Virus record (IMG/VR): IMGVR_UViG_3300033156_001223
Span: 41,842 to 105,841 of that record
Reading direction: 5' to 3' (one strand)
Origin: a virus
Taxonomy: Duplodnaviria > Heunggongvirae > Uroviricota > Caudoviricetes
DNA length: 64,000 nt
Shown here: positions 38,822-46,252 of the stretch, one piece after another
How the letters are laid out: every line of letters starts with the position of its first letter
Numbering within the stretch: position 1 is the stretch's first letter
Notes under the pieces: generated by a model
What the model saw: only the letters and a program-made list of their open reading frames with translations
Database searches by the model: none
What the model was told of the DNA's origin: nothing
Translations under genes and position numbers: made by a program

Positions 38822-40894
38822 TTATGCTGCTACTCTTTCTAGCTCTTGTTGAGTAGGAAACTCAATATGTTGCAACAGAATCTCTACGTCTGGAATGTCA
38901 GGAATTCTCATTCCTGTTGCCAGGGCGGGTATTGGATTGGGACCAGTAGGCCAACTAGCTCCTCCTTTAGCAGCAGTATCAATGATGGTAGTTTTTAATT
39001 TCTCAAAATTGAGTCTCGCTAGAATATCCTCTATCGTATCCAATGGAAGAGTATTCACCCCTCTTAGCACTGGCTCATACTTAACTGGATCTGGTTTAAC
39101 CTCGATAACCGGAAATTTCTGAATCTTTTCAAACACTTTTTCATCAATTAAAGTGCCTGCCGATACCCCACCAATCGATTTTGCTAGTCTCATACCAATT
39201 GCTAGTTTAGGGGGTAGAGATATCTTTTTACTTACTTTTTTATTGAAATGTTCTAAGTAGCTAATCGGAGCATAATCTCCCTCTACATAATAAGGATGAC
39301 TACCCCGGTCTATTACTTTGGCAGTATTAGTTAATGCCTTAACTAGCACTTCTAAGTTCTTCCTCGACACTGTAGCTTCTTCGCTCAGAGTTTTGTCCAG
39401 CTCCTCTACTAATTTGTCTTGGGTATCTTCGATTCCCCTCAATTTGAGAAATTTAATGGGATTAAAAATACCAGAAGAAATAGCATCTCCTCGAGTAACA
39501 CTTTGTCCTCTTTTTACTATTACCTCTCTATCTGCAGGTACCCAGTGCTCTCTCTTATTGATGATAACTCTATGACCTCCCAACTCTGGATCCGGAATAA
39601 CGGCTTCTACTCTTCCGTGAACTTCAGCTAAAATAACCTCATTAGGAATATTCTCTGGGAATTCCAGGAGAACTGATAGCTTTTTGAATGGGCCGATATC
39701 CCCAGTACCGACGTGCCATCTATTAAGAGCTAATTGAGTAGTAGGTTCTCCTACTGCATGAGCCGCTTTCACTCCTACAAAATCTCCTTTCGGATGATCC
39801 TGTCCGGTCACATCTCTACCGAGGCATTTCTGACATACTCCGTGAACTGCCTCACATCTAAGAGGACTCCTTACCACTAACTCTCTTATATATTTGCGTG
39901 CATAACTGAGCAGTTCTGGAGTAACCAAAGTATTATGAGCAAATTTCTTGCCACCAATTTTTTGGCTCCCAGCCAGGTATCTACCAACAATGTTGGGGTC
40001 ATCCACTGACATCTTAATGCCACGAGTAGTACCACAGTCTGTTTCGGTTACTCTTAGATCAAGAACTGAATTCATAACTAATTTAGTTAACCTTCCCGGT
40101 TCACTAACCTCTTTAACCTTTGCTAAAGCTCCGGCACGAGAACCATACATACTAGTTAAATATTCCGGAATATCTAGCCCCTGAGCATACCCTTCTATGA
40201 TTGGAAATTCTATATAATCCCCCTGTAAGTCCTGAACCGCATTACCGAGTAGCATTTGCCTTAAGTGAGATGTTCCTCCACGTGAGCCCGATTCAACCAT
40301 AAGCCTGAAAGCATTGTTCTCTGGAAGCTTTTCTACTAGCTTATTTAATTTATTCAACATATTCTTCATAATTTTATTAGTTTGCTGTTTGGTCTCAGCC
40401 TTCCTCAAAGCATTCATTGCCTCAAACACAATTTTATCTCTTTGTTTTTGAATATTTTTTGGAACAGATAAATCATCAAGACCAAAACTGAAACCAGAGA
40501 AATAAGCTGCATTAAGCCCCACTTCTTTGAGTTTATCTAACAACACTGAATAATCTTTTGGTCTTTCCTTGGCTATCTTTGCTAGGTAATTTCTAAGTAC
40601 TTTTGCGGTTATTGGCTTAGTAAAAAGATGTTTGTCTGGGAGAAAAGATTGGATGAAAAGCCTCCCTGGAGTTGTAGTAGTCCTCCCTACTTTAACAACA
40701 TCATCTACATTGAGCTTTCCACTTTCCCAAGCCTTTAATACTTCACTAACAGATTTAAATTGTTTATTAGTTTTCTTTCCTTCTTTGGTAAGTAAATATA
40801 GTCCTAACACAATATCTTGGCGTGGTGCCCACATTACTTTGGATGTAGAAACGGACCATAGTATCCCAAACAATAACTCCATTTTTAAGAACAA
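38822..40894 (-). CDS. rpoC: RNA polymerase beta' subunit, C-terminal portion (continuation of the rpoBC fusion in another frame)
   Basis: APRQDIVLGLYLLT matches bacterial beta' PSQDVVLGLYYMT; PGRLFIQSFLP and YFSGFSFGLDDLSVP match downstream beta' blocks. Frame is open only from 40915 after TGA at 40916-40918; the listed TTG start is an artefact. Confidence 0.8.
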   Translation of the reverse strand: MFLKMELLFGILWSVSTSKVMWAPRQDIVLGLYLLTKEGKKTNKQFKSVSEVLKAWESGKLNVDDVVKVGRTTTTPGRLFIQSFLPDKHLFTKPITAKVLRNYLAKIAKERPKDYSVLLDKLKEVGLNAAYFSGFSFGLDDLSVPKNIQKQRDKIVFEAMNALRKAETKQQTNKIMKNMLNKLNKLVEKLPENNAFRLMVESGSRGGTSHLRQMLLGNAVQDLQGDYIEFPIIEGYAQGLDIPEYLTSMYGSRAGALAKVKEVSEPGRLTKLVMNSVLDLRVTETDCGTTRGIKMSVDDPNIVGRYLAGSQKIGGKKFAHNTLVTPELLSYARKYIRELVVRSPLRCEAVHGVCQKCLGRDVTGQDHPKGDFVGVKAAHAVGEPTTQLALNRWHVGTGDIGPFKKLSVLLEFPENIPNEVILAEVHGRVEAVIPDPELGGHRVIINKREHWVPADREVIVKRGQSVTRGDAISSGIFNPIKFLKLRGIEDTQDKLVEELDKTLSEEATVSRKNLEVLVKALTNTAKVIDRGSHPYYVEGDYAPISYLEHFNKKVSKKISLPPKLAIGMRLAKSIGGVSAGTLIDEKVFEKIQKFPVIEVKPDPVKYEPVLRGVNTLPLDTIEDILARLNFEKLKTTIIDTAAKGGASWPTGPNPIPALATGMRIPDIPDVEILLQHIEFPTQQELERVAA

Positions 40895-43800
40895 AAGTAG
40901 GAGCCTGGGGGATGGTCAAATCATAGACTGTCTTTCTCCCAATCGGTTTTACCGAAATAACCCGCTTCCAGGAAATCATATCATTCTCTATTAACTCTTT
41001 CCATCTCTGGTATAGAGGGTCATCACTATTTATTTTTTCAATAATTCCCATAGCAAAGTCTCTAGACATCCTATTACTACTATATCGTGGGTAAACAATG
41101 GATCTCAACTTCTTTGGTAATGGAATAATATCTCTTTTAGTAAATTTAGTAGGTAACTCTTTTAATCTCTTTTGTTTGTGATTATGCAAATAAATTTGAT
41201 CTTTCTTAGTCATAATATCTACTGAATTCAAATATGCTCTGTAATAATTTCTTTGCTGCCCTTTATAAGTATATTTGCTATTACTAATTACTGATCTGAC
41301 TCCCAAACTCATTGCTAACATCGATATCTCATAGGCCAGTCTTTCGCTAGTAGTAGAAATATATACCTCTTTACCCTTTTTAGAAATGGTGCCATCTCCT
41401 GCAAGAAGCCCAGAAAGAAGCCCCAATCTAAATTCATATGGAGTAGATAGAAAAAACGTGGGGAGATGCTTGTTGTTAGCTCCTTCTCCAAATAGCACTG
41501 GGAATTCTCCAGCTAGTTTGGTTGAATAGATACGCACAAAATCACTTCTACCTGTTGGGAATTTCCGTATTACTGCTCCTCCTGTTTTATTTAGTTTTTC
41601 CCTACAAATCTTCAGTAAGTATTCTTTCATTTCATCACTAATTGTAGAAATCCTTATTTGGGTATTCCCCTTTTTCCACCCCGTGCAACATCCTTCAGCA
41701 CAATACATTCCAAAAAGAAAACCAAGATCATAATCTAAATCAACCTCTTTTCCATCCATTTCAATTTTCGTAATTTTTTCCTCAGCGGGAATATTTCTTA
41801 ATACTGGTAAATACATACCAACAGATTCTTTAGGAGTTACTCTCTTTAGTTCCAATGTCTCTGGATCAAGACAAAGCAAAGAATGGTCGTTCGAGACTAT
41901 CAAAGTCTTTCCTGATTCAGCAACAACTTCATAACAAGGAACATTTTTATGAACTGAGTAGCTGTAAGGATTTACCCATTTAAGCTCCAAAGCCTTTGGA
42001 TCCATAGCAAGTACTTTAAGATTTTCCTTTACTCTAAATTCTTTAATCTTCCCAGTATCCTTAACTTTTTCATCCTTCGGGAAGTCCTTCAAGTCAGTGA
42101 GATGCACCTCATCGTCATTAAGATAGAATATTTCACCCAATACACTATCACCATCAAAATCAGCATTGAATCCAGCTGTTACTAATGGGTGAATGTGGAT
42201 TACTTTATCTCGAACTATTCTAGGATAGAAAGCCATCACTCCATATTTATGGAGTACCGGATCCCTTTTTAAATAGACTGGTCTATTAGCCATCTCCCTC
42301 TCAAGTGCCCTTCTAGCTGCTTCCTCCTTATTCTCAACTACTAATCTAGCCCTAGCCGGACTATATCCAGCTTCCACCAATTTTCTCACTACAATTGGTT
42401 CAAAGATTTTCCAGGCCATGTCCTCTGGTATACCAACTTCATCTAAATGGAGTGATGGATCAGGGACAATCACACCTCGAGAAGAAAGATCTTGTCTTCT
42501 TTTGAGTAGAGCACTTTGAAAGTAACCAAGTTTTGGGCTTGGTCCAATAATAATATCCATCACAGACTTAAGCTTACGATTTATGCCGACCTCGAGTCCA
42601 TCAAGCTCCAAAGCTTTAACCGCATCATACAATTTAGCATATACTTTCCCATACTCCGCTTCAGGAAACTCTTTTCTAGCTATAGGTATCTGATTGTTGA
42701 CCATAGCAATATTTCTATATAAACCATTAATATCATGGACAGATATTCCCCCTTGTTTAAGCTGAACTAGAGGTCTGAAGAAAGAAGGAATGACAACTAT
42801 GTTTTTTCTAAGAAATATTTCTTCTGGTTTCTTATTTAATTTAATTATATTCCTCAAAATCTTAATTTTTCTGGCTAATACTGATTTTCTCTGGTCGTTA
42901 GCAGTTTTAATTTCCTGGGTGGCCTTAGCCAACTCTTTCTTTGGATCCAGTCTTCGTAAAAGCATTCTGAAAGCATCCCCAAATTTGTATTTACCATCTG
43001 GAGTAATTTTTCCAGTACTATCTACTCCGAGTTTCCCAGAAACTATATCTTTAAAAGTAGCAGAATTTATCTCCAATAGAATGCATAATGCTCGTTCAAA
43101 TATAGGATTTGGAACTACCTCATTAAGAGGAATGTGGTTATATTTAGTGCCGAAGAACCCTCCAGTAAGTCTTGGGTCAAATAATCCCCCCTCCTCAGCT
43201 ACTGGGTTTCCTTTTTTCATTCTGATAATTTTAGTTGCATCTATTTCCCCATTCGAGAGCTTAAGAATATCTTCATCAAATAGAGGAACAAATTGGAGAA
43301 CGTTTCCGAGCTTCTCTACATTAATCCCCAAGGCCCGAAGGTAAGATTCAAATTTCTGGTAAGTTAGAGGAGTTTTAGGTCTGGGTATTGGTAGGCCTGA
43401 TTGGAAAGCATACCAGAAATCTGGATTATAGTCACTTTTGTAGGTTTGTGCTTCATAAAGGTTTGCTTTTGCTCCGTGAGCCAACATTGCATATAAACCA
43501 AGATGCCCCAATGACTGAGCACCACCTTCAGATGATCCAAGAGGCAACGCATCATAACTATACTTTTCTCCTGCCCCGGCTCCTCGGGCATGTAGTTTAG
43601 GTTCCGCCCGATGTTTTAATTTCATAATATATTGTGGTCCTATGAAGACATCCGGTATGGGTTTTCCAGTCTTCGGATCAACCAAATCTTCTTTATCTGG
43701 AATTTTCAATCTCTTCAATTCATCCCTGATTTTGGAATAATAGTTCCCCATAAAATTTTCTACTGGGTAAGGCTTTCCGGTCTTCTCTGCTATTTTTCCA

Positions 43801-46214
43801 GCTAAAGTTTCCAACACCTGCCCCATATTCATACGAGAAATTACTCCAAGAGGATTCAAAACCACATCTATGATTTTACCATCCTTAGTTCTAGGCATTT
43901 CCGAATCAGGAATGATTGCTCCAATTACTCCTTTGTTTCCGTGCCTATTAGCCAGTTTATCTCCAACTTGTGCCGGCTCGGTGGTACGAATATAAACCTT
44001 AACGAATTTTGGTCTTTTGACTACCTTAACGACCTTACCGGGTGAGGAACGATTCCAAGTTATAGATCTATCTCTTTCAGGTATAGCTAGTTTTTTAGAA
44101 AACTTGGCAAGCAAGAATTGATCAGGAGTGGGCAGTTCTTTGTGGATTACCAAGATAATTGGGTCTCCTTCTTCGACCATCTGCCCAACCTTAACTACTC
44201 CGTCATCATCTAATTTATTAAGCTGATCTTTAGTAAATAGAGTAGAGGGGAATAGAGAAATATATCTCTTTTTATTTAAAGTAGTATCCTTGTCGACATA
44301 TTGGGAAAATTCATATAAATGCTCACTAGTAAGTTTCTTAGCAGCAGACTCCGAAATAACAATAGCATCATCAATATTATGTCCTTTGAAAGGCATATAA
44401 GCTACTAGGAGATTCTTACCAAAGGCAAATCTTCCTTCTTTAGTGTAATTAGTATCAAACAACAAATCCCCTTTTTTTACTTTCTGTCCTTCTTTAACCA
44501 GTGGTTCACTATCCAAAAAACCATCTTGTAAAGGATAATCCTTTGGCATAGATATCTTGTGAGTCTTTCCGGACTTATCTTTAACGTAAATATACTCAGA
44601 AGTAACCTTTGAAACGGTTCCATTAACCGGCGATTTATTGAAGAAGATGCCCATACTATCCAGTAGCTCCTCAGAGATTGGTGTTCCATTTATGACTGGG
44701 AAAACTAATGGATATTCTCTCTCTTTCAAAGGCAATGCCTGCTCCAATTGTTTTACTGCCATAAGGACTCTATTTCCGGAATCATAGTTGAGAAATGGCA
44801 CTAATGAAGTTAGGTGACTAAAAAAATCTAGTGGGTGTAGAGTAAAATAATCTATCTTGTCTTTATTCACAAAACCAAATTTCCCTTTACGTAAAGCCAT
44901 CCACCTATTACCCTTTACTGGTTTGATACCGATTACTGAGTTATATACTTGTTCTGGAGTAAGAAATTCTCTTCTTCCTCTTTTATCTTTTAAAATAACT
45001 ACTGGTTTTCCATCTTTATTAAATCCAGAAACTGCTGATGCCAAGTGAAGAGTTGTTCCAATCTTAATATTGTCTGGAGTATGCACCGGATCTAAAAAAA
45101 GAAAAGTACTGGGATTAATCATTCTCTGCTTATCTGTAACCCGGTGGATGTCTCCGATTCCACCCTCCCCCATAATAGTAACTTTGTTGACTGCACTCAT
45201 AGCAGAGATTGGTCCAGTAAAAGATTCAACATTAGATATTTGGCTGTTTGTAAAGAATGAGCGAACGGCAGGGGTAAAAAAACTACTTAAGCCTAAATCA
45301 GCTATTTTTTTGCGCTTGTCAACCGTATTCTTTAATCTATTCTTCAAAATTACCATTTTTCTTAATCTTTCTCCAAGAATCTCCGATGGGGTCACTATTT
45401 GCTTAAATAAGAGTGAATCTCTATCATCCTCCTTTCCTCCTCGAAGTATTTCAATTAATCTCTCAAGAGACCTAATTAAAGTATCAACGTCCACTTTCTC
45501 GTATTTCTTTCCTAAAGTAGCTTCTGTAACTTCCGGAGTAAGGGTAGTAGAATCCAATAGTTTCTTAAACTCTTCAGCTGGGTTGGGGGGTGCTTTCTCG
45601 TATCCCAAAGCCCTAAATAACTTATTGTAATTTAATGTTTTTTTGTAATTAATAGCATAAATCTTATCTCCAACAATATTCCTTAACTTTTCCTCTCCTA
45701 CTCCCAAGGATAATAGCAACGGGATTAGGGGGATGTGGACAGTGCCATACTCGAGTAGAATAGTAAAGTCTTTTGGATTAAGAATTAGCTTAATACCTCT
45801 TCCTTTTAGATTGATTTGATTAAAATTTGCTTGGATGGTATTATCTGCCTTCTTTTCATGATACACACCTGGCAACAATCTCATCTGAGTAGGAATATGA
45901 TATTCAGAACCACCAACTAAAAAAGTAAAGCGAGGGGTTAAGATTGGGATTCTTCCAATCAACACTCTTTTCTGATCCAAAACCTTACCATCTTTCGTCT
46001 TTAATACTGCTGTAGCATAAACAGGGATGTCCCAAGTTCTATCCTGCCATCGGTATTCTCGTTGGATATTGTAGTCGTGGAGATCTTTGTCAAACTTTGC
46101 CTCTAAATCTTTTATCTCCAAACGATGATTCTTCCCCTCAACAGGGAAAAAATCCTTGATTGATTCTAAGACGGAACTGACATACTTACGGATACTGGCT
46201 TCAAACTGAGTCAT
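40767..46214 (-). CDS. rpoBC: RNA polymerase beta-beta' fusion (rpoB fused to the N-terminal part of rpoC), carrying an intein after NADFDGD
   Basis: 1815 aa; beta motif NRHGNKGVIGAIIPDSEMP...DVVLNPLGVISRMNMGQVLETLAG; beta' N-terminal GGLFDPRL; catalytic NADFDGD at 42147-42167; Hint/LAGLIDADG region follows. Confidence 0.85.
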   Translation of the reverse strand: MTQFEASIRKYVSSVLESIKDFFPVEGKNHRLEIKDLEAKFDKDLHDYNIQREYRWQDRTWDIPVYATAVLKTKDGKVLDQKRVLIGRIPILTPRFTFLVGGSEYHIPTQMRLLPGVYHEKKADNTIQANFNQINLKGRGIKLILNPKDFTILLEYGTVHIPLIPLLLSLGVGEEKLRNIVGDKIYAINYKKTLNYNKLFRALGYEKAPPNPAEEFKKLLDSTTLTPEVTEATLGKKYEKVDVDTLIRSLERLIEILRGGKEDDRDSLLFKQIVTPSEILGERLRKMVILKNRLKNTVDKRKKIADLGLSSFFTPAVRSFFTNSQISNVESFTGPISAMSAVNKVTIMGEGGIGDIHRVTDKQRMINPSTFLFLDPVHTPDNIKIGTTLHLASAVSGFNKDGKPVVILKDKRGRREFLTPEQVYNSVIGIKPVKGNRWMALRKGKFGFVNKDKIDYFTLHPLDFFSHLTSLVPFLNYDSGNRVLMAVKQLEQALPLKEREYPLVFPVINGTPISEELLDSMGIFFNKSPVNGTVSKVTSEYIYVKDKSGKTHKISMPKDYPLQDGFLDSEPLVKEGQKVKKGDLLFDTNYTKEGRFAFGKNLLVAYMPFKGHNIDDAIVISESAAKKLTSEHLYEFSQYVDKDTTLNKKRYISLFPSTLFTKDQLNKLDDDGVVKVGQMVEEGDPIILVIHKELPTPDQFLLAKFSKKLAIPERDRSITWNRSSPGKVVKVVKRPKFVKVYIRTTEPAQVGDKLANRHGNKGVIGAIIPDSEMPRTKDGKIIDVVLNPLGVISRMNMGQVLETLAGKIAEKTGKPYPVENFMGNYYSKIRDELKRLKIPDKEDLVDPKTGKPIPDVFIGPQYIMKLKHRAEPKLHARGAGAGEKYSYDALPLGSSEGGAQSLGHLGLYAMLAHGAKANLYEAQTYKSDYNPDFWYAFQSGLPIPRPKTPLTYQKFESYLRALGINVEKLGNVLQFVPLFDEDILKLSNGEIDATKIIRMKKGNPVAEEGGLFDPRLTGGFFGTKYNHIPLNEVVPNPIFERALCILLEINSATFKDIVSGKLGVDSTGKITPDGKYKFGDAFRMLLRRLDPKKELAKATQEIKTANDQRKSVLARKIKILRNIIKLNKKPEEIFLRKNIVVIPSFFRPLVQLKQGGISVHDINGLYRNIAMVNNQIPIARKEFPEAEYGKVYAKLYDAVKALELDGLEVGINRKLKSVMDIIIGPSPKLGYFQSALLKRRQDLSSRGVIVPDPSLHLDEVGIPEDMAWKIFEPIVVRKLVEAGYSPARARLVVENKEEAARRALEREMANRPVYLKRDPVLHKYGVMAFYPRIVRDKVIHIHPLVTAGFNADFDGDSVLGEIFYLNDDEVHLTDLKDFPKDEKVKDTGKIKEFRVKENLKVLAMDPKALELKWVNPYSYSVHKNVPCYEVVAESGKTLIVSNDHSLLCLDPETLELKRVTPKESVGMYLPVLRNIPAEEKITKIEMDGKEVDLDYDLGFLFGMYCAEGCCTGWKKGNTQIRISTISDEMKEYLLKICREKLNKTGGAVIRKFPTGRSDFVRIYSTKLAGEFPVLFGEGANNKHLPTFFLSTPYEFRLGLLSGLLAGDGTISKKGKEVYISTTSERLAYEISMLAMSLGVRSVISNSKYTYKGQQRNYYRAYLNSVDIMTKKDQIYLHNHKQKRLKELPTKFTKRDIIPLPKKLRSIVYPRYSSNRMSRDFAMGIIEKINSDDPLYQRWKELIENDMISWKRVISVKPIGRKTVYDLTIPQAPTFVLKNGVIVWDTMVRFYIQSNVGTTPRYCVRTIFTYQRRKEN
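40863..42146 (-). other. intein (Hint domain with double-motif LAGLIDADG homing endonuclease), 428 aa
   Basis: Starts with Ser directly after DFDGD (SVLGEIFYL); block B ESGKTLIVSNDHSLLC; LAGLIDADG motifs LFGMYCAEG and LLAGDGT; block F/G VYDLTIPQAPTFVLKNGVIVWD then +1 Thr. Confidence 0.7.
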
Positions 46215-46222
46215 TGTAAGTT

Positions 46223-46228
46223 ATTATA
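46223..46228 (-). promoter_or_regulatory. TATAAT -10 box 8 nt upstream of the rpoBC ATG (possible leaderless start)
   Basis: Minus strand ...tttgcTATAATaacttacaATG; no SD between. Confidence 0.3.
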
Positions 46229-46252
46229 GCAAAGGTTTCATTTCTAAGCATC

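What the first reader, a model, noticed from the sequence alone, without database searches (positions are those of the whole stretch)
40767..40918. +1 frame break about 30 codons after the intein, in the middle of beta'
After the intein the zero frame continues only 31 codons (TMVRFYIQSNVGTTPRYCVRTIFTYQRRKEN, stop at 40767). The conserved beta' sequence (KVMWAPRQDIVLGLYLLT...) continues in the +1 frame, which is open only downstream of a TGA at 40916-40918. The segment between DFDGD and PRQD would be about 14 aa in any merged reading, against about 38 aa in bacterial beta'. Three readings are possible: an assembly indel, a programmed +1 frameshift, or a genuine split of beta' at this point with independent initiation of the downstream part. 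No SD is seen for the downstream part.
Basis: seen in the sequence. Interest (0 to 1): 0.6.

Follow-up and report, generated by a model that had tools for sequence, protein, structure and literature searches.

The report
71-bp deletion breaks phage RNAP gene
The frame break after the intein in this phage RNA polymerase gene comes from a 71-base stretch that is missing from this contig but present in an otherwise identical sister contig, so it is a sequence lesion or assembly problem and not a programmed frameshift or a natural gene split.

Summary
On the minus strand, an 1815-aa ORF (fused RNAP beta + beta' N-part + 428-aa LAGLIDADG intein after NADFDGD) stops 31 codons after the intein, at 40769-40767. 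The rest of beta' continues in the +1 frame.

The cause is a 71-nt deletion at window 40856|40855. JGI contig L001 is 100% identical to the window over 6.9 kb. At this point it carries 71 extra bases encoding (A)VFTPLTNDAVKEMQKMLPSSNLF, the conserved beta' stretch that follows the catalytic aspartates. Putting it back gives one continuous ORF that aligns without gaps to solved beta' structures.

Distant relatives read straight through this point, both without an intein (2091-aa beta-beta') and with an intein at the same site. Real beta' splits in related phages lie about 85 aa further downstream and keep this segment. No frameshift or restart in the window can recover the 24 missing residues. 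None of the candidate start codons has the strong AGGAGG-type Shine-Dalgarno (SD) site found before most genes here.

One oddity remains. L001 has its own 61-nt frameshifting deletion 36 nt upstream, inside the intein, and no intact copy was found. Whether the deletions are assembly artefacts, minority variants or true defective alleles cannot be settled without reads. Low interest.

The parts
42147..46214 (-). N-extein of 1356 aa: RNAP beta fused to the N-terminal part of beta', ending in the catalytic motif NADFDGD
   Evidence: Pfam Rpb2_6, Rpb2_3, Rpb1_1 and Rpb1_2. tblastn of the 2091-aa relative P0121, residues 18-1427, matches window 46172..42141. Translation.
40863..42146 (-). Intein of 428 aa with a LAGLIDADG homing-endonuclease domain. 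It has Ser1 (SVLGEIFYL), block B ..IVSNDHSLL.., two LAGLIDADG motifs (LGFLFGMYCAEG, LGLLSGLLAGDG), block F VYDLTIPQAPTF, and block G NGVIVWD followed by Thr+1
   Evidence: Pfam Intein_splicing, LAGLIDADG_3 and Hom_end. Sequence read. P0004 has an intein at the same site (..VILSN|TMSVHVP..).
40856..40862 (-). First 7 nt of the C-extein (ACT ATG G: Thr+1, Met, and the first base of an Ala codon), retained in the window
40855..40856 (-). Deletion junction. 71 nt found in sister contig L001 (L001 1077-1147, CAGTATTTACTCC...AATCTTTTT) are absent between these two bases. They encode (A)VFTPLTNDAVKEMQKMLPSSNLF. 71 = 3n+2, which produces the apparent +1 shift
   Evidence: blastn of L001 against the window gives 1040 nt and 5815 nt at 100% identity, flanking the indels. 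Alignment A1. The reconstruction gives one open frame.
38822..40855 (-). Rest of the beta' C-extein (677 aa plus stop: SVSTSKVMWAPRQDIVLGLYLLT...ERVAA*), out of frame with the upstream part only because of the deletion
   Evidence: Pfam Rpb1_3, Rpb1_4 and Rpb1_5. It is identical to P0119 from residue 26 on.
40767..40855 (-). Out-of-frame tail of the upstream ORF (..VRFYIQSNVGTTPRYCVRTIFTYQRRKEN, then TAA 40769-40767). It is not a real coding frame
   Evidence: The same bases read in the +1 frame match relatives.
40892..40952 (-). 61-nt segment encoding intein block F (..VKPIGRKTVYDLTIPQAPTF..). It is present in the window but deleted in sister contig L001
40916..40918 (-). TGA that closes the +1 frame upstream. 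A TAA at 40951-40949 closes it again 11 codons further up, so reading TGA as a sense codon would not help

Best explanation
The break is a 71-bp deletion private to this contig. It is not a gene-expression mechanism. The native gene is one ORF: beta-beta' N-extein (1356 aa), then a 428-aa LAGLIDADG intein inserted right after NADFDGD, then the C-extein TMAVFTPLTNDAVKEMQKMLPSSNLFSVSTSKVMWAPRQD... (703 aa). It would be translated as one precursor of about 2487 aa, and protein splicing would yield a fused beta-beta' of about 2059 aa. Translation as one precursor and splicing are both inferred. In the window, 71 nt (2 nt + 23 codons) directly after Thr+1-Met are absent. This removes the conserved strand and helix that follow the Mg-binding aspartates (about E. 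coli beta' 467-491) and shifts the frame. As written, the window copy cannot make a functional beta' by any reading. I think the deletion most likely does not represent the majority functional genome. It could be an assembler path choice, a library artefact or a minority deletion variant, arising at an intein junction where the assembly graph is tangled. The sister contig carries a different lesion 36 nt away, and both contigs are otherwise identical and undecayed. My probability that a 71-nt deletion, rather than recoding or a split, is the cause is about 0.93. The confidence given here (0.6) is for the narrower claim that it is an artefact or minority variant and not a fixed allele.
For: (1) P0119 and L001 are 100% identical to the window over 1040 + 5815 nt with 0 mismatches, and contain the 71 nt in frame. 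(2) The union of the two contigs is one open frame. The reconstructed extein aligns end to end to solved beta' chains (8dkc_D 380-653, E 2.5e-39) with only a single 1-residue gap inside the restored stretch and none at either joint. (3) The 2091-aa relatives P0120 and P0121 (no intein) and P0004 (intein at the same site) are continuous and keep the homologous 24 residues. tblastn shows that P0121 residues 1428-1449 have no counterpart in the window. (4) The segment is not encoded elsewhere in the window. (5) No SD precedes any downstream start, while most genes here have AGGAGG. (6) Both ORFs are otherwise intact, so there is no sign of decay. (7) Two different frameshifting lesions lie within 170 nt, out of 6.9 kb compared, which points to a locus-specific problem. 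(8) In a distant relative, a contig (L002) begins 2 nt before the Met that follows DFDGD-T. This shows that this intein site breaks assemblies.
Against: No intact copy was observed. The full-length sequence is a reconstruction from two contigs, each with its own lesion. The breakpoints have 0-1 nt of microhomology, with no repeats and no hairpin. A de Bruijn-graph assembler cannot invent such a junction without reads that contain it, so deletion-bearing molecules or chimeric library fragments probably did exist. A contig of 142.6 kb implies good coverage, which makes a rare chimera less likely to be chosen.
Confidence: 0.6

Rival explanations
1. Genuine, dominant loss-of-function allele. The phage genomes sampled really carry the 71-bp deletion (and, in the other sample, the 61-bp one). 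That would make them RNAP-defective genomes, either maintained by complementation or carrying a dispensable RNAP, or showing very recent pseudogenisation.
For: Junction k-mers must come from reads. There are no repeats or hairpins that could explain an assembler or polymerase jump. No intact copy is found in any database searched. The intein's non-canonical Trp-Asp end might mean it splices poorly, so the gene could already have been impaired.
Against: Two independent lethal-looking frameshift deletions sit 36 nt apart in genomes with 0 SNPs over 6.9 kb. That is hard to reconcile with two independently fixed alleles. There are no other stops or frameshifts in about 7.4 kb of coding sequence. 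The window holds only one RNAP copy. A C-terminal Asp is a known functional variant in inteins (PMC2807308).
Confidence: 0.3
2. Genuine split of beta' at the intein site. The upstream product would end in the 31-codon tail, and the downstream part would be initiated independently (for example at ATG 40882 or 40834, or at GTG 40810 as the JGI gene caller chose).
For: Split beta' genes do exist in related phages (L003 and L004: 1827 aa, then two small ORFs, then 629 aa) and in cyanobacteria (gamma chains). The public gene call P0001 starts at GTG 40810.
Against: Neither part encodes the 24 conserved residues after DFDGD. No SD precedes any candidate start, in a genome rich in strong SDs. Promoter-like sites are no more frequent than in shuffled sequence. 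The split is not conserved: the sister contig has the segment, and real splits lie about 85 aa downstream and keep it. The upstream product would carry an out-of-frame tail in place of the C-extein.
Confidence: 0.04
3. Programmed +1 ribosomal frameshift that joins the two frames within 40767-40918.
For: The two frames overlap by about 150 nt, and the downstream frame is +1 relative to the upstream one.
Against: Homology switches frame exactly at ATG-G|TCC (40856|40855). There is no stop or hungry codon there, and no re-pairing is possible for AUG in the +1 position. The zero-frame stop lies 29 codons later. Any shifted product still lacks 24 conserved residues. The identical sister contig and all relatives need no shift here.
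Confidence: 0.02

Closest known systems
Intein-interrupted polymerase genes (class 1 HINT inteins with a LAGLIDADG homing endonuclease, inserted in catalytic motifs)
   Same: A contiguous intein with an N-terminal Ser, a block B His, two LAGLIDADG motifs, blocks F and G, and Thr+1. It is inserted directly after the catalytic NADFDGD of beta'. A distant relative (P0004) has an intein at the same site.
   Different: Block G ends in Trp-Asp, not His-Asn. A C-terminal Asp is documented in some inteins (PMC2807308). In this contig the extein directly after the intein lacks 71 nt.
Phage-encoded bacterial-type multisubunit RNAP (the 'mReC' Caudovirales of Weinheimer & Aylward 2020, PMC7481178), and beta-beta' fusions as in Helicobacter (the latter from my own knowledge)
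   Same: The window is phage-like (family A DNA polymerase, UvsX-like recombinase, exonuclease). Its beta and beta' are recognisable with standard Pfam models. The closest metagenomic relatives are single 2091-aa beta-beta' fusions.
   Different: Membership of the published mReC clade was not tested. The best non-self relatives are only about 33-36% identical.
Naturally split beta' (cyanobacterial gamma/beta'; the phage relatives L003 and L004)
   Same: Beta' is encoded as two polypeptides in some lineages.
   Different: Those splits lie about 85 aa or more downstream of DFDGD and keep every conserved segment. In L003 and L004 they are conserved across several contigs. The window's break lies 2 codons after the intein and loses 24 conserved residues.
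Fractured genes with split inteins and a free-standing endonuclease (Dassa et al. 2009, PMC2677866)
   Same: A gene broken at an intein site.
   Different: Here the intein is contiguous, with an internal endonuclease domain, and it runs in frame through its C-terminal junction into Thr+1-Met. The break is in the extein, not between intein halves.
Programmed +1 frameshifting (prfB type; from my own knowledge)
   Same: The downstream frame is +1.
   Different: There is no shift-prone codon plus stop at the switch point. The break is not conserved, and a shifted product would not be full length.

Membership tests
Programmed +1 ribosomal frameshift site | Shift-prone P-site codon followed by a stop or slowly decoded codon at the point where homology changes frame | tested here: not met
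   Homology switches at ACT ATG G|TCC (40856|40855). The zero-frame stop lies 29 codons later.
Programmed +1 ribosomal frameshift site | The frame break is conserved in homologues | tested here: not met
   The identical sister contig L001, together with P0004, P0120 and P0121, reads through this point in one frame.
Programmed +1 ribosomal frameshift site | The shifted product restores the complete conserved protein | tested here: not met
   Any merged product lacks 24 conserved residues. P0121 residues 1428-1449 are unmatched in the window.
Split beta' (two-gene rpoC) | The two parts together contain all conserved beta' regions | tested here: not met
   The segment AVFTPLTNDAVKEMQKMLPSSNLF is absent from the whole window.
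Split beta' (two-gene rpoC) | The downstream part has its own start codon with a ribosome-binding site | tested here: not met
   No SD lies within 20 nt of any of the five candidate starts, whereas about 20 of 25 genes here have one.
Split beta' (two-gene rpoC) | The split position is conserved among relatives | tested here: not met
   The real split in L003 and L004 lies about 85 aa downstream of DFDGD. Cyanobacterial gamma chains extend at least 77 aa past DFDGD.
Fractured gene / split intein | Intein N and C halves on separate ORFs with a free-standing endonuclease gene between them | tested here: not met
   One contiguous 428-aa intein with an internal LAGLIDADG domain.
Class 1 intein with LAGLIDADG endonuclease | N-terminal Cys/Ser nucleophile and block B Thr/Ser-x-x-His | tested here: met
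   Ser1 (SVLGEIFYL) and ..IVSNDHSLL... Pfam Intein_splicing E 2e-11.
Class 1 intein with LAGLIDADG endonuclease | Two LAGLIDADG motifs | tested here: met
   LGFLFGMYCAEG and LGLLSGLLAGDG. Pfam LAGLIDADG_3 E 8.5e-15.
Class 1 intein with LAGLIDADG endonuclease | Block G His-Asn followed by a Cys/Ser/Thr +1 residue | tested here: inconclusive
   The intein ends in Trp-Asp | Thr. Thr+1 is present. Asp is a documented replacement for Asn (PMC2807308), but the penultimate Trp is unusual.
Class 1 intein with LAGLIDADG endonuclease | Protein-splicing activity | not testable with these tools
   Needs expression of the precursor.
Multisubunit RNAP beta' (double-psi beta-barrel with NADFDGD) | NADFDGD motif and the flanking conserved domains Rpb1_1 to Rpb1_5 | tested here: met
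   Pfam hits. The reconstructed sequence aligns to solved beta' chains. The window copy alone lacks the 24 residues after the motif.

The most novel reading that the evidence does not exclude
Both deletions are real and recurrent. The C-terminal splice junction of this intein would then be a DNA deletion hot spot, caused for example by nicking by the intein's own LAGLIDADG endonuclease at the retained half-site, or by aborted homing repair. Such a hot spot would keep generating RNAP-defective phage genomes that persist by complementation in an otherwise clonal population.
Probability: 0.08. Interest if true: 0.55.

Novelty: not a real feature. Interest (0 to 1): 0.15.

Why it matters
The main value is as a correction. 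This locus should not be reported as a programmed frameshift or as a new split of beta'. Gene callers that start the downstream ORF at GTG 40810 give a truncated, non-functional annotation. The underlying biology is worth a line but belongs to known kinds: a phage-encoded fused beta-beta' RNA polymerase with a homing-endonuclease intein inserted right after the catalytic aspartates. The one open point is why two otherwise identical contigs carry different frameshifting deletions on either side of the same 36-nt splice-junction segment. Reads would settle that quickly.

Tried and rejected
- **Alternative genetic code.** Reading TGA 40916-40918 as a sense codon does not extend the +1 frame usefully, because a TAA follows 11 codons upstream at 40951-40949.
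- **Segment relocated elsewhere.** Neither the 71 nt nor its peptide occurs elsewhere in the window.
- **Second RNAP copy.** None in the window.
- **Hairpin-driven polymerase skipping.** The DNA fold of the reconstructed 235 nt is no better than shuffles (z = -0.16).
- **Repeat-mediated deletion.** The breakpoints share 0-1 nt. Segments A and B are not similar to each other (1274 of 2000 shuffles score as well).
- **Promoter for the downstream part.** Sigma-70-like hits are no more frequent than in shuffles (18 found against 23.2 expected).
- **Search for an intact copy.**
  - Protein searches with the C-part and with the intein plus junction found only the two known contigs.
  - Exact-pattern scans of metagenome contigs and viral contigs with the 36-nt junction segment and with the missing segment found nothing; the window and L001 are themselves absent from those collections.
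  - The search for related loci in viral contigs found no relative.
  - Look-ups of neighbouring proteins returned only L001 or nothing.
- **Other broken genes in the window.** Overlapping ORF runs at 22.4-24.3 kb and 29.3-31.2 kb gave no evidence of split families in PHROGs.
- **Sample metadata.** A literature search for the JGI sample number found nothing.
Full report
**What is there**

The genes are on the minus strand. ORF 46214..40767 (1815 aa) matches RNAP beta (Rpb2_6, E 3e-70; Rpb2_3) and the N-terminal half of beta' (Rpb1_1, Rpb1_2). It also holds an intein with a LAGLIDADG endonuclease domain (Intein_splicing, LAGLIDADG_3, Hom_end).

The intein runs from 42146 to 40863 (428 aa). It begins with Ser directly after NADFDGD and ends ...NGVIVWD, followed by Thr-Met. 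ORF 40894..38822 (690 aa, +1 frame) holds Rpb1_3, Rpb1_4 and Rpb1_5.

The window is phage-like. It has a family A DNA polymerase, a UvsX-like recombinase, an exonuclease, many small ORFs and no tRNA genes.

**Check of the observation**

- The zero frame continues for 31 codons after the intein and ends at TAA 40769-40767.
- The +1 frame is opened by TGA 40918-40916.
- The conserved ...KVMWAPRQDIVLGLYLLT lies in the +1 frame.
- The linker between DFDGD and PRQD is far too short.
- No SD is present.

**The decisive comparison**

A protein search with the downstream ORF found its own 90%-identity cluster (P0001, the public gene call, which starts at GTG 40810). That cluster has one further member, P0119, of 702 aa. 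P0119 begins MAVFTPLTNDAVKEMQKMLPSSNLFSVSTSKVMWAPRQD.... It lies on a 6962-bp JGI contig, L001.

L001 is 100% identical to the window over 1040 nt and 5815 nt, with no mismatch. The two contigs differ only by two indels:
- **B:** L001 has 71 extra nt (L001 1077-1147) between window bases 40856 and 40855.
- **A:** L001 lacks 61 nt that the window has (window 40952..40892, intein block F).

A 36-nt segment, C (40891..40856), spans the intein's C-terminal splice junction. It is common to both contigs and separates the two indels.

Joining the two contigs (X-A-C-B-Y) gives one uninterrupted frame...WKRVISVKPIGRKTVYDLTIPQAPTFVLKNGVIVWD|TMAVFTPLTNDAVKEMQKMLPSSNLFSVSTSKVMWAPRQDIVLGLYLLT....

With the intein removed, this reconstruction aligns end to end with solved bacterial beta' chains (8dkc_D 380-653, E 2.5e-39). 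The only gap in the restored stretch is a single residue, and there is none at either joint. The window therefore lacks 2 nt + 23 codons, equivalent to about E. coli beta' 467-491. This is the strand and helix that follow the Mg-binding aspartates. The numbering is inferred from the offsets.

**Relatives**

- The nearest non-self relatives are about 33-36% identical. They are 2091-aa beta-beta' fusions without an intein (P0120, P0121), and they read DFDGDTMAVFVPVSQEAVDE..KMMPS.NLFNPATG.VMYQP.
- P0004 has an intein at the same site (..VILSN|TMSVHVPISHDANREAEKMLPSRNLY...) and is continuous through the junction.
- Alignment A2 shows the window's merged reading as the only sequence with a 24-column gap.
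- tblastn of P0121 leaves its residues 1428-1449 unmatched in the window, and there is no second RNAP copy.
- More distant phages do have a true split of beta'. In L003 and L004, an 1827-aa beta + beta'N gene is followed by ORFs of 243 and 75 aa, then a 629-aa beta'C gene; P0014 itself is carried on five contigs. That split lies about 85 aa downstream of DFDGD and retains the conserved segment.
- Cyanobacterial gamma chains also extend well past this point.

**Why not a frameshift or a restart**

The switch of homology between frames is exactly at ATG-G|TCC, where there is no shift-prone context. The zero-frame stop lies 29 codons later. No reading recovers the 24 residues. TGA recoding does not help, because a TAA lies 11 codons upstream. 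None of the five candidate starts has an SD, while about 20 of 25 genes checked here have AGGAGG-type sites. Promoter-like hits do not exceed chance.

**What remains unexplained**

No intact copy was seen. Each of the two contigs carries its own frameshifting lesion, 36 nt apart, in otherwise identical and undecayed sequence.

The breakpoints show 0-1 nt of microhomology. There is no hairpin, and A and B are not similar to each other. A de Bruijn-graph assembler needs junction k-mers from reads, so deletion-bearing molecules or chimeric fragments probably existed.

Against that, two independently fixed lethal-looking deletions in genomes with no SNP over 6.9 kb are biologically implausible. 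Intein sites also disturb assemblies: in a distant relative, contig L002 starts 2 nt before the Met that follows DFDGD-T.

I therefore rate the options as follows:
- Artefact or minority variant at a tangled locus: about 0.6.
- Real dominant defective allele: about 0.3.
- Functional split: about 0.04.
- Programmed frameshift: about 0.02.

**Comparison with known systems**

The intein is an ordinary class 1 LAGLIDADG intein, apart from its Trp-Asp terminus. A C-terminal Asp is documented in some inteins (PMC2807308). It is not a fractured gene with a split intein (PMC2677866), because the intein is contiguous.

The host gene is a phage-encoded bacterial-type RNAP, as described for RNAP-encoding Caudovirales (PMC7481178). 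Here it is fused into one beta-beta' gene, like its metagenomic relatives.

**Verdict**

The frame break is a 71-bp deletion lesion of this contig. It is not a recoding signal and not a conserved gene split. Interest is low. Read mapping would settle the residual question.

Noticed in passing
L001 1040|1041 (equivalent to window 40952..40892): The sister contig, identical elsewhere, has its own 61-nt frameshifting deletion. It removes intein block F, 36 nt upstream of the window's deletion. In that contig the intein ORF ends out of frame at L001 1109, and the gene caller starts beta'C at the Met after Thr+1.
   Followed up: partly
window 40863-40883: The intein's block G ends in Trp-Asp where His-Asn is canonical (NGVIVWD|T). 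A related intein at the same site in P0004 ends in Ser-Asn. Splicing competence is unknown.
   Followed up: partly
L002 1-5: In a distant relative, a MEGAHIT contig begins 2 nt before the Met that follows DFDGD-T. That is the intein insertion point, and the cluster-mate P0120 is intein-less. This suggests intein presence/absence polymorphism that breaks assemblies at this site.
   Followed up: no
L003 and L004, 573-8890: More distant phages have a genuinely split beta'. An 1827-aa beta + beta'N gene is followed by a low-complexity Pro/Ala/Gly/Met-rich 243-aa ORF and a 75-aa ORF, then a 629-aa beta'C gene. An intein sits at a different site upstream (..IFSGN|SSPKF..). The protein P0014 (the 629-aa beta'C) is carried on five contigs.
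   Followed up: partly
window 46215-46236: The fused rpoBC ORF has no SD before its ATG at 46214, unlike most genes in the window. A TATAAT hexamer lies 9-14 nt upstream, so a leaderless or very short-leader mRNA is possible. The promoter scan gave only a weak hit there.
   Followed up: partly
window 40632-40994 (+): A 120-aa ORF lies antisense to the junction region. It has no support and is most likely spurious.
   Followed up: no
window 38822-46214: [quoted passage not shown] After splicing the mature protein would be about 2059 aa.
   Followed up: partly
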